Virus record (IMG/VR): IMGVR_UViG_3300010373_001364
Span: 48,116 to 112,115 of that record
Origin: a virus
Lineage: Duplodnaviria; Heunggongvirae; Uroviricota; Caudoviricetes
DNA: 64,000 nt
Reading direction: 5' to 3' (one strand)
Translations under genes and position numbers: made by a program
Shown: piece by piece, positions 268 to 2,630 of the stretch
Layout: each line of letters opens with the position of its first letter
Position numbering within the stretch: the stretch's first letter is position 1
The notes under the pieces: model-generated
Database searches by the model: none
What the model was told of the DNA's origin: nothing
Seen by the model: the letters and a program-made list of their open reading frames with translations, nothing else

Positions 268-339
268 GCCCCTGTAGCTCAGTGGCAGAGCGGCAGTCTC
301 TAAAACTGCTTGTCGCGGGTTCGATCCCCGCCAGGGGTT
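268..339 (+). tRNA. amber suppressor tRNA, anticodon CUA
   Basis: Cloverleaf: acceptor GCCCCTG/CAGGGGT, D-stem GCTC/GAGC, anticodon arm GCAGT-CTCTAAA-ACTGC (CTA at 300-302), T-arm GCGGG-TTCGATC-CCCGC; U73; CCA not encoded. Confidence 0.9.
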
Positions 340-488
340 CTAGGTCGGAGACATGGGGAAGTACGGACAAGCCGTAGCCAGCCACAAGGGTCAGGTGAGC
401 GCACTGATCTCGGTAGGTGCCGTATAAGAGCGTAACCCCATCGCCGTGTGGCGGCATCGTCTAATCGCAACAGGACACCGACCGCTTT

Positions 489-560
489 CCTCCAGAAGCC
501 AAACGGTGCGGCAGCAGTCTCTAAAACTGCGCTTAGTGGGTTCGACTCCCACCTGGGGGG
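489..560 (+). tRNA. second amber suppressor tRNA, anticodon CUA
   Basis: Acceptor CCTCCAG/CTGGGGG, 3-bp D-stem GCC/GGC, same anticodon arm GCAGT-CTCTAAA-ACTGC (CTA at 521-523), T-arm GTGGG-TTCGACT-CCCAC; G73. Confidence 0.85.
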
Positions 561-563
561 CTT

Positions 564-848
564 ATGCCAATCAACGAGAAAGGACAAGTCGTTCTCACCT
601 TTTGGAAAGGGATGACTTGTTGGGGATGTATCTTCCTTTGGTGGATTTTCTGGGGTCTGGTTGCTGGACTCACCAAGGAATACCTAAACGCCCCTGATTG
701 GGTGGTGTTTATCCTCATGGGCGTATGTGGCGGCATGTTCGGCATAGTGCCAGTGATCTTTTTCATCCACGAAGAGAGGAAGTATAGAAATGGCAGCGAC
801 GATTTCGGAAGCACCGAACAACCTGCTCCGCTTCCGCGTACTGAGTAA
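564..848 (+). CDS. small membrane protein (2 predicted TM helices)
   Basis: Two hydrophobic stretches (CWGCIFLWWIFWGLVAGL; WVVFILMGVCGGMFGIVPVIFFI). Confidence 0.7.
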   Translation: MPINEKGQVVLTFWKGMTCWGCIFLWWIFWGLVAGLTKEYLNAPDWVVFILMGVCGGMFGIVPVIFFIHEERKYRNGSDDFGSTEQPAPLPRTE

Positions 849-1014
849 GGACCGGGTGTACTACTGCCTCTACAACGTGACTGAAAAGAAATACAAAGGC
901 GCTTTCTACGACGAGCGTTGCCAGTCTCCTGCCGGTCTTTGGGCATGGCAGGAGCGGGAGGTCATGGAGGCAGTCGAGAAGTACGTCGAAGAAAAAATTC
1001 TGGCGGCTGCTTGA
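790..1014 (+). CDS. hypothetical protein (start uncertain)
   Basis: Co-oriented ORF; purine-rich SD-like run before 790; ends ILAAA. Confidence 0.5.
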   Translation: MAATISEAPNNLLRFRVLSKDRVYYCLYNVTEKKYKGAFYDERCQSPAGLWAWQEREVMEAVEKYVEEKILAAA

Positions 1015-1042
1015 TTTTGACCGGAAGCATGATATCATAGGG

Positions 1043-1146
1043 GAGAGGGTAAAGGAAGTGGTGCTTACCACGCCTTAAATGATCGGTCAGCCGAAGTGCC
1101 GGCGCTCCAGCGCCTTAAACGACTGGTCGGCTTCCTTCACCCTCTC
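1043..1146 (+). ncRNA. structured leader RNA upstream of the pth-like gene
   Basis: 15 of 16 bp closing stem (1043-1058 with 1131-1146) enclosing two hairpins, each followed by or overlapping CGCCTTAAA (1071-1079, 1111-1119). Confidence 0.55.
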
Positions 1147-1165
1147 ATCTAAGAAGGAGAAAGAC

Positions 1166-1528
1166 ATGAGTCACTAGGTTACAAGTCCGGTTGTCGAAAC
1201 GCCCTATTGCTACATCTTCGTCCGTAAAGACCTATCTCCAGGGCAACAGCTTGTCCAATCTTGCCACGCTGTTGCTGAAAGCGCACAACACTACTTCCAC
1301 GGTGTATCTGAACACCCGCACTTCGTCGTCTGCGGCGTGAAGGATGAAGCTGCGCTTCTCAAAGCACTTAAAAAACTTGAGGATAACGGCATTCGCCACA
1401 CCGTCTTCCGCGAGGCTGACCTGGACGATCAGGCTACAGCCATCGCCACAGAGCCGGTGTATGGTGAAACACGCCGCCTGTTCAGGAACTATCAGCTTCT
1501 TCAACCACAGGAGGTGTGCGTAGCATGA
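1166..1528 (+). CDS. peptidyl-tRNA hydrolase 2 (Pth2)-like protein with in-frame TAG at codon 4 (needs read-through)
   Basis: SD AAGGAG 1154-1159; ATG AGT CAC TAG GTT...; frame then open to TGA 1528 giving YCYIFVRKDLSPGQQLVQSCHAVAE...FREADLDDQATAIATEP, typical of Pth2-like proteins; no ATG/GTG/TTG between the TAG and the conserved motif. Confidence 0.8.
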
Positions 1529-1821
1529 GAAGGGACATCAAGCGCGGTTCGTGGTTCAAGGTTGAATCCGAATCACAGCACAAAAACCTCAAAGCCTGCG
1601 GCAAACTGGAATACGACAGCTTCTGGACTTCTAGAGTCCAGATCGGCACCTACGCCGGTCCAGGCTGGTATAAGGTGCTGAGTTATCAACAAAAGTGTCC
1701 AAGAGGATGCTGTTATGATTCCGTCCATGAAGTGATCCCAGCCGCCGATGTGGTTGAGGAGGTAAAGGACGAGATGAGGGAGCTTGCTGACTTGCTTAGA
1801 GAGGCTAGAGGAAAGAAGTAA
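1525..1821 (+). CDS. hypothetical protein
   Basis: ATGA overlap with the pth-like stop; SD GGAGG upstream. Confidence 0.7.
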   Translation: MRRDIKRGSWFKVESESQHKNLKACGKLEYDSFWTSRVQIGTYAGPGWYKVLSYQQKCPRGCCYDSVHEVIPAADVVEEVKDEMRELADLLREARGKK

Positions 1822-1826
1822 CTATC

Positions 1827-1975
1827 GGGGTGTGTAGGATAGGTGAAACTTTTCAGGTAGCATGTTTGATGCATCCATCATGCCGCTTTGAGGGGAGTAA
1901 CTGAGGCTTCCATGTCAAGGAACAAACCGTGAACGTGACGGTCCTTAACTTCGGGTTCGACCCCCGACCACCCCA
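1827..1975 (+). ncRNA. tRNA-like RNA with an expanded central region
   Basis: 5' GGGGTG pairs with 3' CACCCC+A; canonical T-arm TCGGG-TTCGACC-CCCGA at 1951-1967; about 110 nt of hairpins replace the D and anticodon arms. Confidence 0.55.
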
Positions 1976-1980
1976 CTTTT

Positions 1981-2054
1981 ACCCGGTTAGCTCAATTGGC
2001 AGAGCATCGGTACAACGTACCGAAGGTTGCGCGGTTCGAGTCCCGCACCGGGTA
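1981..2054 (+). tRNA. atypical tRNA, nominal anticodon AAC (Val-like)
   Basis: Acceptor ACCCGGT/ACCGGGT, D-stem GCTC/GAGC, anticodon arm TCGGT-ACAACGT-ACCGA (no U33), bulged T-stem with TTCGAGT loop. Confidence 0.65.
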
Positions 2055-2114
2055 CTTTTGACCTCACGGAGTAACTTATGGGTAGAATACCCTTCCTGGG
2101 GCAGAAAAGTTTGG

Positions 2115-2188
2115 ACCCGGTTAGCTCAGCGGCTAGAGCGTTGGATGTACTAATCCAAAGGTCGGGGGTTCGATTCCTTCACCGGGTA
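2115..2188 (+). tRNA. atypical tRNA with 8-nt anticodon loop (TGTACTAA), identity undetermined
   Basis: Same acceptor ACCCGGT/ACCGGGT, D-stem GCTC/GAGC, stem TTGGA/TCCAA, T-arm GGGGG-TTCGATT-CCTTC. Confidence 0.65.
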
Positions 2189-2207
2189 ATACCACTAAGG
2201 AGGTTAC

Positions 2208-2630
2208 ATGAAAGCATGGTTCACATAGGGTCAGAGACTTGGTTTGCCGGAATGTCCATACATGCGGCGCTGGGTTCTTAACCTGGGTTTCTTCTCCATC
2301 AGACTGCATCACTGGTATGCATCTGATGATGCAAGAAACTTTCATGACCACCCTTGGTGGTTCATCACTCTCGTTCTCTGGGGCAGCTATACTGATGTGT
2401 CGTCCGCTGGCAAGGAAAAGATGAAGCCTGGTATGATCCGCTATCGTCCCGCTCTGCACCGTCATACCGTGCGCGTGAACTCTGGAGGTTGCTGGACACT
2501 TCTGATTACAGGACCACAAATCAGAAAGTGGGGCTTCTGGGTGCGGGGCGGAAACAAGTTCGTCAAGAGTAACAAGTATTTTCTAGAGTACGGACATCAT
2601 CCGTGCAACCAAGAGGAGGTTCTACAATGA
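2208..2630 (+). CDS. cupin-like phage protein with in-frame TAG at codon 7 (needs read-through)
   Basis: SD AAGGAGG 2198-2204; ATG AAA GCA TGG TTC ACA TAG GGT CAG...; in frame with ORF 2244..2630 (SIRLHH...HDHPWWF His cluster, cupin-like). Confidence 0.7.

What the first reader, a model, noticed from the sequence alone, without database searches (positions are those of the whole stretch)
268..2630. Amber-gated locus: two CUA suppressor tRNAs next to two genes that need UAG read-through
Seen: two tRNAs (268-339, 489-560) have divergent bodies but an identical 17-nt anticodon arm GCAGT-CTCTAAA-ACTGC reading UAG. Within 1.7 kb downstream, two genes have strong SDs and ATGs followed by an in-frame TAG: 1166 ATG AGT CAC TAG (Pth2-like) and 2208 ATG AAA GCA TGG TTC ACA TAG (cupin-like). 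Both frames then stay open for over 110 codons. TAG still ends about ten other genes here (pyrG, dCMP deaminase, ends at 33005, 49547, 54002, 56790, 62571), and no long conserved gene contains TAG, so the genome is not globally recoded. Known: suppressor tRNAs occur in large phages, and amber recoding has been linked to lytic-gene regulation. Inference: a dedicated switch in which these proteins are made only when the phage tRNA-CUA is expressed and charged.
Basis: partly seen in the sequence, partly recalled or inferred. Interest (0 to 1): 0.92.

Follow-up and report, generated by a model that had tools for sequence, protein, structure and literature searches.

The report
Amber-gated genes beside phage suppressor tRNAs
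A giant soil phage that otherwise uses the normal genetic code carries two tRNAs that read the UAG stop codon, and two nearby genes start with a conserved UAG that must be read through, so they can probably be made only while those tRNAs work; this gives the phage's otherwise target-less suppressor tRNAs a concrete target.

Summary
Two tRNA(CUA) genes (268-339, 489-560) lie upstream of a PTH2-like gene (ATG 1166, TAG at codon 4) and a small cupin gene (ATG 2208, TAG at codon 7). Contigs from independent studies reproduce both TAGs without a difference.

The 176-kb phage record uses the standard code: ORF coverage is 93.9% under code 11, and TAG ends about 10% of genes, including pyrG. No other convincing in-frame TAG gene was found.

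The early TAG is conserved in relatives:
- 18 distinct PTH2-like genes at 39-70% identity begin SD-ATG-(1-4 codons)-TAG-purine. They include Serratia phage BF, Xanthomonas phages XacN1 and Xoo-sp13, and the 595-kb phage LR756511.
- At least six other cupin genes carry TAG, mostly where other homologs have Trp.
- tRNA(CUA) sits beside 36 of 59 more distant PTH2-like loci. It made up 1 of 76 tRNAs in control loci.

An apparent Gln at the PTH2 site in database proteins is an artefact of gene calling with TAG=Q.

The best reading is suppressor-dependent translation under selection. Read-through, tRNA charging and purpose are untested. This scan had already noted the tRNA(CUA)/PTH2 pairing on many other genomes. 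The conserved cupin target is what this report adds. I found no published description.

The parts
268..339 (+). tRNA(CUA)-1. It folds as a canonical cloverleaf with a 7-nt loop CUCUAAA. It has a G1-U72 pair and U73, and no encoded CCA. This is the body type usually found beside PTH2-like genes (81% identical to the tRNAs of L046 and L055).
489..560 (+). tRNA(CUA)-2. It has the same 17-nt anticodon arm on a different body: a Gln-like 3-bp D stem (GCC..GGC), A8 instead of U8, C1-G72 and G73. Rfam score 46 bits.
564..1014 (+). Two small overlapping ORFs (564-848 and 790-1014) between the tRNAs and the PTH2-like gene. They have no Pfam family. In several relatives this spacer is absent and the tRNA lies 17-48 nt from the gene.
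1011..1165 (+). A promoter-like site (TTGATT, 16 nt, TG-TATCAT at 1011-1038) followed by a structured 5' leader whose long hairpin closes just before the SD. The evidence for both is weak.
1154..1159 (+). Shine-Dalgarno AAGGAG, 6 nt before ATG 1166.
1166..1528 (+). PTH2-like gene of 120 codons, read MSH-UAG-VTSPVVETPYCYIFVRKD...
1175..1177 (+). In-frame TAG at codon 4 of the PTH2-like gene, followed by G.
1516..1821 (+). ORF of unknown function, overlapping the end of the PTH2-like gene.
1981..2054 (+). tRNA-like gene with the loop ACAACGU (C33, no U33). It shares its acceptor stem with the next tRNA-like gene.
2115..2188 (+). tRNA-like gene with an 8-nt (or 6-nt) anticodon loop UGUACUAA, ending 19 nt before the cupin start codon.
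2198..2203 (+). Shine-Dalgarno AGGAGG, 4 nt before ATG 2208.
2208..2630 (+). Small cupin gene of 140 codons, read MKAWFT-UAG-GQRLGLPECPY... It belongs to a virus-dominated family with no Pfam model that nearly always lies right after a tRNA gene.
2226..2228 (+). In-frame TAG at codon 7 of the cupin gene, followed by G. It aligns to Trp (TGG) in most homologs and lies in predicted strand beta-1.
2603..3058 (+). Last ORF of the block (2603-3028, no Pfam family) and a bidirectional terminator-like hairpin (3037-3058).

Best explanation
The two genes are translated in full only when a phage tRNA(CUA) reads the UAG placed a few codons after a strong ribosome-binding site. The position of that UAG is kept by selection.

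Shown here: the sequence anatomy (SD, ATG, 1-6 codons, TAG, purine); conservation of TAG at the same place in diverged relatives; its restriction to TAG; co-occurrence with tRNA(CUA); and standard-code usage elsewhere in the genome.

Inferred, step 1: the tRNAs are processed, receive CCA and are charged by a host synthetase. They then compete with RF1 at the early UAG, where a ribosome holding only a 3- to 6-residue peptidyl-tRNA terminates poorly.

Inferred, step 2: output of the PTH2-like enzyme and the cupin therefore follows the level of active suppressor. The most likely logic is feed-forward. The enzyme that clears peptidyl-tRNA by-products is made in proportion to the read-through that creates them, and it is not made at all without the phage tRNA. 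The amino acid inserted is unknown.
For: Anatomy, and absence of any other start codon for gene 1.

Both TAGs are present in contigs of independent studies.

TAG is kept 1-4 codons after the ATG in 18 distinct PTH2-like genes at 39-70% identity (LR756511 54%, Xoo-sp13 52%, XacN1 39%, phage BF 37%). Each checked start has a GGAG-type SD and a purine after the TAG.

The neighbouring codons vary (ACT/ACC/ACG, CAC/CAT, then GTT/ATT/GGC/AAT) while the TAG stays. No TAA or TGA was seen at these sites.

The cupin gene has TAG at the Trp position in L044, L122, L125, L127, L131 and L136, and at codon 2 in L126. The AlphaFold2 model puts residues 5-13 in strand beta-1, so a downstream start would truncate the fold.

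tRNA(CUA) lies 17-48 nt upstream, co-oriented, in L052, L055, L181 and L183. It lies in the flank of 36 of 59 distant PTH2-like loci, where 37 of 71 tRNAs are CUA. In control loci 1 of 76 tRNAs is CUA.

The complete cultured genome of Serratia phage BF has one tRNA(CUA) and exactly one early-TAG gene, the PTH2-like one. The complete 363-kb record G004 has two tRNA(CUA) genes and the TAG-cupin.

The genome uses the standard code.
Against: Nothing is experimental. No RNA run holds the locus, and no proteomics or ribosome profiling is available.

The tRNA identities could not be assigned. tRNA-2 has A8, and tRNA-1 has G1-U72 with U73, so one of them may work poorly.

TAG ends about 10% of the phage's own genes, including pyrG. 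These show no excess of back-up stops, so efficient suppression would carry a cost.

The cupin gene has possible downstream starts (TTG 2244, ATG 2262).

The PTH2-like family has lost the DAGxT motif of solved Pth2 enzymes, so its activity, and with it the feed-forward logic, is uncertain.
Confidence: 0.75

Rival explanations
1. Tolerated dependence without a regulatory role. Once a phage carries suppressor tRNAs for some other reason, sense-to-TAG changes at unimportant N-terminal positions become harmless and persist. The genes are read through, but the TAG is not a switch.
For: TGG to TAG is a single transition, and the cupin position also accepts I, F, C, L and V. The tree suggests that TAG and sense states are intermixed (though several 'sense' labels there were later shown to be TAG).
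Against: Both TAGs fall within the first 7 codons and within 2 kb of the tRNAs in a 176-kb record. TAG is retained in 18 PTH2-like genes whose flanking codons are saturated with changes. The same early placement arose in two unrelated gene families. A purine always follows the TAG.
Confidence: 0.13
2. The TAGs are real stops. The 3- and 6-codon ORFs are leader minigenes (like lambda bar), and the enzymes are made by re-initiation downstream.
For: There is a strong SD and a very short ORF. The cupin gene has TTG 2244 and ATG 2262 downstream.
Against: Gene 1 has no ATG, GTG or TTG for 54 codons, while the PTH2 domain starts 12 codons after the TAG. Protein sequence is conserved directly after the TAG. 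A leader ORF could end in any stop codon, yet all 26 cases use TAG. The arrangement co-occurs with tRNA(CUA).
Confidence: 0.07
3. The phage is TAG-recoded (code 15), and these are just two of many recoded genes.
For: Public pipelines translated several relatives with TAG=Q.
Against: ORF coverage is 93.9% under code 11 against 94.7% with TAG as sense. TAG ends 25 of 242 ORFs, including CTP synthase. No other credible in-frame TAG gene was found in 176 kb. The complete genomes of phage BF and G004 give the same result.
Confidence: 0.03
4. Sequencing or assembly error, or recent pseudogenes.
For: None found.
Against: Contigs from four studies have 0 differences over the sites, and the TAG is conserved in relatives.
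Confidence: 0.01

Closest known systems
Stop-codon recoding in phages with phage-encoded suppressor tRNAs and 'code-change modules' (Borges et al., bioRxiv 10.1101/2021.08.26.457843; code 15 in crAss-like and Lak phages)
   Same: A phage tRNA that reads a stop codon is proposed to license translation of phage genes that carry that codon in frame, which gives temporal control.
   Different: In those phages dozens of late and lysis genes are recoded and code-11 gene calls collapse. Here the genome is standard code, and only one or two small genes next to the tRNA carry a single TAG, always within the first few codons. That paper does not mention a hydrolase.
Orphan suppressor tRNAs of standard-code jumbo phages, e.g. 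Xanthomonas phage XacN1 (PMC5852040)
   Same: XacN1 has two tRNA(CUA) genes in a standard-code jumbo phage, and a PTH2-like domain gene is present.
   Different: [quoted passage not shown] I find ATG AAG TAG with an AGAGGA SD directly upstream of the annotated start of XacN1 ORF364, whose C-terminus is the PTH2-like domain. Xoo-sp13 has ATG AAG AAG TAG at the same place.
prfB (RF2) autoregulation through an early in-frame UGA
   Same: An early in-frame stop codon in a translation-factor gene makes its synthesis depend on how that stop codon is being decoded.
   Different: prfB escapes by a +1 frameshift and senses its own product. Here escape would be by a dedicated tRNA, and no feedback from the PTH2-like protein is shown.
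Lambda bar minigenes and host Pth
   Same: A strong SD is followed by a 2-4 codon ORF ending in a stop, which is the kind of message that yields short peptidyl-tRNAs, the substrate of peptidyl-tRNA hydrolases (textbook knowledge, not tested here).
   Different: bar minigenes are free-standing and toxic in pth mutants. Here the 'minigene' is the first codons of a hydrolase-like gene and continues in frame.
PTH2 of jumbo phages (Iyer et al. 2021, PMC7824862)
   Same: [quoted passage not shown]
   Different: That paper makes no link to suppressor tRNAs or stop codons.

Membership tests
tRNA (Rfam RF00005) | Cloverleaf scoring above the gathering score | tested here: met
   Scores are 67.6, 46, 53.6 and 57.9 bits against a cut-off of 29. 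tRNA-1 folds as a cloverleaf at its minimum free energy.
Amber suppressor tRNA | A 7-nt anticodon loop with U33, anticodon CUA and a purine at position 37 | tested here: met
   Both tRNAs have the loop CUCUAAA. tRNA-like genes 3 and 4 fail this test: one has C33 and the other an 8-nt loop.
Amber suppressor tRNA | It is aminoacylated and inserts an amino acid at UAG in vivo | not testable with these tools
   No RNA run holds the locus. Identity elements are ambiguous.
tRNA-Pyl (ARAGORN's label) | The special tRNA-Pyl architecture (3-nt variable loop, short D loop, 6-bp anticodon stem), together with pylS and pylBCD genes | tested here: not met
   Both tRNAs have 5-nt variable loops and ordinary D arms. 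The label follows from the anticodon alone. pyl genes were not searched for.
PTH2 peptidyl-tRNA hydrolase (PF01981) | A sequence match above the Pfam cut-off and to solved Pth2 structures | tested here: met
   Pfam gives 29.7 bits against a cut-off of 23. The family profile hits PDB 24bt_A (E 9.5e-7) and 2zv3.
PTH2 peptidyl-tRNA hydrolase (PF01981) | The conserved DAGxT active-site motif | tested here: not met
   The motif aligns to the variable stretch E-x-D-l-d-n with a 4-residue deletion. Invariant residues in this family are instead VQ..HA, P51, E83 and TAxAT. I therefore call it 'PTH2-like'.
PTH2 peptidyl-tRNA hydrolase (PF01981) | Hydrolyses peptidyl-tRNA | not testable with these tools
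   This needs an enzyme assay.
Cupin superfamily | A small beta-barrel fold with His-rich metal-binding motifs | tested here: met
   The AlphaFold2 model has pLDDT 87.9. Foldseek matches the TM1459 Mn-cupin at E 6e-7 and TM-score 0.56-0.71. Invariant residues include H34, H46-D47-H48, H86 and H130-H131. No Pfam model fits.
Code-15 (TAG to Gln) recoded phage | Many genes interrupted by in-frame TAG, with coding density restored when TAG is read as sense | tested here: not met
   Coverage is 93.9% against 94.7%. TAG ends 25 of 242 ORFs. Only two credible in-frame TAG genes exist.

The most novel reading that the evidence does not exclude
The tRNA(CUA) plus early-UAG gene pair is a self-contained read-through homeostat. 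The UAG sits where a ribosome holds only a 2-6 residue peptidyl-tRNA, so RF1 acts poorly and the site reports suppressor activity far more sensitively than ordinary gene-end UAGs. The PTH2-like protein then acts back on the suppressor pathway, by hydrolysing peptidyl- or aminoacyl-tRNA(CUA) or by clearing drop-off products. The phage could thus run a controlled level of UAG read-through in a standard-code host. That would make it a prfB-like autoregulatory loop built from a tRNA and a hydrolase.
Probability: 0.2. Interest if true: 0.9.

Novelty: new variant of a known kind. Interest (0 to 1): 0.78.

Why it matters
Suppressor tRNAs in standard-code phages have had no known target; the XacN1 authors say so explicitly. 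A conserved early UAG in one or two neighbouring genes supplies that target. It implies a minimal, portable translational gate made of one tRNA and one codon, distinct from genome-wide recoding.

It also exposes a systematic annotation error. Gene finders truncate these genes, skip them (they are unannotated in Serratia phage BF and its Erwinia and Yersinia relatives), or silently translate them with TAG=Q.

The arrangement exists in cultured phages (Serratia phage BF, XacN1, Xoo-sp13), so the idea can be tested directly.

Tried and rejected
1. 'TAG stands for Gln in gene 1.' The full-length database homologs read MSHQI, MHQV and MQHQT. Their DNA shows TAG at that codon, and the collection had translated them with TAG=Q. 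I withdrew the claim. The 'sense' labels in the tree are partly wrong for the same reason.

2. Expression. No RNA holder is listed for the locus.

3. tRNA identity. I compared the tRNAs with about 125 phage tRNAs and with the tRNA sets of phage BF, G004, L034 and L036. No clear parent emerged. tRNA-2 has a Gln-like D arm, but its acceptor stem is not Gln-like.

4. It has no Pfam match, so there is no support.

5. Other in-frame TAG genes in the 176-kb record.
- The candidate at genome position 159326 (YbjQ-like) has a low-complexity stretch after the TAG and a GTG with SD 23 codons downstream.
- The candidate at 136419 on the minus strand has an ATG two codons after the TAG.
- The remaining hits are antisense-looking frames.

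6. An early-TAG ORF next to the CUA tRNAs of G004 (252183, minus strand) has an SD-ATG 33 codons downstream, so I left it as doubtful. No PTH2-like gene lies near those tRNAs or anywhere else in G004.

7. A quadruplet reading of the 8-nt loop of tRNA-like gene 4 against the shared UAG-G context does not fit. The loop would pair with UAGU or AGUA, not UAGG.

8. The search for related loci with the wide alignment A1 failed because it had no conserved stretch. I repeated the search with alignment A2.

9. Looking for close cultured relatives of the whole phage through its RecA-like gene gave only matches at about 30% identity.
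Full report
**What is there**

The window is bases 48116-112115 of a 176-kb IMG/VR virus record. CheckV estimates it as 35% complete, so it is a fragment of a very large phage. ARAGORN and Rfam find only four tRNA genes in the whole record, all within 2 kb.

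Two of them (268-339 and 489-560) carry the anticodon CUA in a normal 7-nt loop, CUCUAAA. They share an identical 17-nt anticodon arm on bodies that are otherwise 68% identical.

Downstream on the same strand lie two genes with textbook starts.
- Gene 1: AAGGAG, 6 nt, then ATG(1166) AGT CAC TAG GTT.
- Gene 2: AGGAGG, 4 nt, then ATG(2208) AAA GCA TGG TTC ACA TAG GGT.

Gene 1 continues open for 116 codons and matches Pfam PTH2 from residue 16 (E 8e-7, above cut-off). There is no ATG, GTG or TTG for 54 codons after the TAG. Gene 2 continues for 133 codons. It belongs to a large, mostly viral family with no Pfam model. Its AlphaFold2 model (pLDDT 87.9) is a small metal-type cupin, with TM1459 as the best match at E 6e-7.

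**Is it real, and is it more than chance?**

Logan contigs from four different studies (mine drainage and soils, 2022-2025) cover 1175-1177 without a single difference. Two of them also cover 2226-2228.

I scanned the 176 kb for a strong SD, an ATG, at most 20 codons, a stop, and then at least 80 open codons. TAG gave four hits; TAA and TGA gave none. The two extra TAG hits are unconvincing on inspection. A wider search for TAG-interrupted frames gave only antisense-looking frames.

The genome is not recoded. A greedy ORF cover is 93.9% under code 11 and 94.7% with TAG as sense. TAG ends 25 of 242 ORFs of 60 aa or more. One of these is a full-length CTP synthase (10975-12684, minus strand; Pfam E 4e-99).

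**Relatives of the PTH2-like gene**

The public protein collection hides the feature. Relatives appear either as truncated calls or as full-length proteins with a 'Q' at the site. Going back to the DNA showed that the 'Q' is a TAG that the collection translated with TAG=Q.

Every close relative I could check begins the same way:
- ATG ACT CAC TAG (L046, L049, LR756511)
- ATG ACC CAC TAG (L047)
- ATG AGT CAC TAG (L181)
- ATG CAC TAG (L053, L056, L182)
- ATG ACG TAG (L052, L057, L186)
- ATG ACG CAT TAG (L055)
- ATG CAA CAC TAG (L183)
- ATG AAC GAT CAA TAG (L051)
- ATG GGT TTT GCA TAG (L048)
- ATG ACT TAC ACA TAG (L184)

The same start occurs in cultured phages. Serratia phage BF has ATG ACG CAC TAG in a stretch left unannotated. 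XacN1 ORF364 has ATG AAG TAG with an AGAGGA SD just upstream of its annotated start. Xoo-sp13 has ATG AAG AAG TAG.

That makes 18 distinct sequences at 39-70% protein identity (LR756511 54%, Xoo-sp13 52%, XacN1 39%, phage BF 37%). Each start I checked has a GGAG-type SD 4-9 nt upstream and a purine after the TAG. None has TAA or TGA at this site. The codons on either side vary freely while the TAG stays, which argues for selection on the TAG itself.

**Link to tRNA(CUA)**

Where the flank is available, a co-oriented tRNA(CUA) often lies 17-48 nt upstream (L052, L055, L181, L183). In L046 there are two, as in the window, with the same NUDIX and RecA neighbours.

A more distant branch of the family has an ordinary start (MKLYVLVRKDLS). 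It is nevertheless flanked by a tRNA(CUA) in 36 of 59 metagenome loci. There, 37 of the 71 tRNAs found are CUA, and in 31 loci it is the only tRNA. In the loci fetched with the cupin gene, 1 of 76 tRNAs is CUA. So tRNA(CUA) and this PTH2-like gene form a widespread pair, and in one large branch the gene itself depends on the tRNA.

In the complete genome of Serratia phage BF (357 kb) there is one tRNA(CUA), 3.5 kb from the gene. The PTH2-like gene is the only early-TAG gene the scan finds there.

**Relatives of the cupin gene**

More than 440 homologs exist. Their N-termini read MKFFTWGEKLG or MKLGLTWGQRLG. The window's TAG therefore aligns to a position that is mostly Trp, and sometimes I, F, C, L or V. 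My own table-11 translations of the loci confirm TGG there.

TAG at that position recurs in other loci:
- L044: ATG AAG TTC ACA TTT CTG TAG GGC, with a tRNA(CUA) 773 nt upstream.
- L122, L125, L127 and L131: ATG AAA TTY ACN TAG AAC. These come from AT-rich giant phages.
- L136: ATG AAA TTT ACA TAG AAA.
- L126: ATG TAG, with a tRNA(CUA) 204 nt upstream.

The record behind L131 is a complete 363-kb standard-code genome. It has two tRNA(CUA) genes, and the cupin is its only robust early-TAG gene. It has no PTH2-like gene. The cupin is thus a second, independent target family.

The model places residues 5-13 in the first beta-strand. Starting at TTG 2244 or ATG 2262 would remove part of the fold.

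**How it most likely works**

What is shown is the anatomy, the conservation, the restriction to TAG, the co-occurrence with tRNA(CUA) and the standard code elsewhere.

What is inferred is the following. The tRNAs have no encoded CCA. They must be processed and charged by a host enzyme, and they then compete with RF1 at the early UAG. Full-length PTH2-like protein and cupin would therefore appear only when active suppressor is present, and in proportion to it.

Established work on minigenes and peptidyl-tRNA drop-off shows that ribosomes carrying very short peptides terminate poorly. I recall this work and did not test it here. It would make an early UAG a sensitive target while ordinary gene-end UAGs are less affected.

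The most economical purpose is feed-forward coupling: a hydrolase that clears peptidyl-tRNA by-products is produced to match the read-through that generates them. This step is weak, because the family lacks the DAGxT motif of solved Pth2 enzymes.

The region looks like one or two transcription units ending at a terminator-like hairpin at 3037-3058. A promoter-like site and a structured leader lie before gene 1.

**Rivals**

- A leader minigene with re-initiation fails for gene 1, which has no start codon and conserved coding sequence right after the TAG. It also does not explain why the stop is always TAG.
- Neutral tolerance of nonsense codons under an existing suppressor cannot be excluded. 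It fits poorly with the early placement in two unrelated families, the proximity to the tRNAs and the long-term retention.
- Genome-wide recoding and sequencing error are excluded.

**Known work**

Borges et al. describe recoded phages and 'code-change modules', but no hydrolase and no single-gene gating in standard-code phages. The XacN1 paper reports two CUA tRNAs and states that no targets could be identified. Iyer et al. list PTH2 in jumbo phages without linking it to suppressors. Two full-text searches found no description of the pairing.

This scan had already noted the tRNA(CUA)/PTH2 pairing on many other genomes: 229 notes in at least 182 genomes hold the search words. Those notes are AI leads. 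I re-derived the pattern independently here.

New in this report:
- The cupin as a second conserved target.
- The TAG=Q annotation artefact.
- The whole-genome censuses of phage BF and G004.

**Verdict**

I class it as a new variant of phage stop-codon reassignment.

Noticed in passing
window 1981-2054 and 2115-2188; L005-L007, L045, L118, L123, L124, L132-L134: The cupin gene family nearly always lies 12-50 nt after a tRNA-like gene whose anticodon loop is abnormal. The loops lack U33 (ACAACGU, AGUACCU, CAGAUGA, CGAACGC, GAUCACA, GAGAUCC) or have 8 nt (UGUACUAA). The acceptor and T arms are intact. These may be non-decoding tRNA-like elements, for example processing signals or a substrate of the cupin.
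   Followed up: partly
L005:2983-3060, L006, L007, L123, L124: One branch of the cupin family has no ATG, GTG or TTG between the upstream tRNA and the conserved N-terminus (for example ..GTA CTA GTA AAG GCA GCC TGG GCT GAA AGA CTC GGG). An Ile codon often stands where Met is expected. Public gene calls run through the tRNA ('GVAQ..GSNP..').
   Followed up: partly
L181, L182, L183, L184, L186 (Logan and ENA gene calls): Public protein collections hold these PTH2-like genes translated with TAG=Q, so a 'Q' in a database homolog can be a hidden stop codon. In Serratia phage BF and its Erwinia and Yersinia relatives the gene is not annotated at all.
   Followed up: yes
L186:911-1309: This PTH2-like gene has a second in-frame TAG inside the domain (..FAPG*DQEHPH..) besides the one at codon 3.
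   Followed up: no
L146 (XacN1 ORF364) and L149 (Xoo-sp13 gp327): In these Xanthomonas phages the PTH2-like domain is the C-terminus of a ~280-aa protein with an extra N-terminal domain. A 'glutamyl-tRNA amidotransferase' gene lies about 1 kb upstream.
   Followed up: no
26 IMG/VR contigs, L016-L041: The exact 17-nt anticodon arm GCAGTCTCTAAAACTGC occurs in tRNA(CUA) genes with very different bodies. Several contigs have two CUA tRNAs. This suggests convergence on, or exchange of, an efficient suppressor arm.
   Followed up: partly
window 1039-1152: The 5' leader of the PTH2-like gene folds into a long hairpin (GGGGAGAGGGU...ACCCUCUC; -51.6 kcal/mol, z -2.45) that ends just before the SD. A promoter-like site with an extended -10 lies at 1011-1038.
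   Followed up: no
genome G000:C1:159326 (outside the window): AGGAG-ATG AAA AGA TGC CTG ATC GGG TAG lies ahead of a YbjQ-like ORF. It is ambiguous, because a GTG with a strong SD lies 23 codons downstream and an overlapping 29-codon ORF in another frame also ends in TAG.
   Followed up: partly
window 200-2700: Contigs identical to this stretch occur in soil and mine-drainage metagenomes of at least four studies from 2022-2025, so this phage or a near-clone is geographically widespread.
   Followed up: partly
L145:2500-3184 (G004, minus strand): Directly downstream of one tRNA(CUA) of the 363-kb phage lies an ORF that begins ATG ACT AAA GAA TGG TCA ACA AGT CAC ACA TAG GTA. An SD-ATG 33 codons later makes read-through doubtful.
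   Followed up: partly
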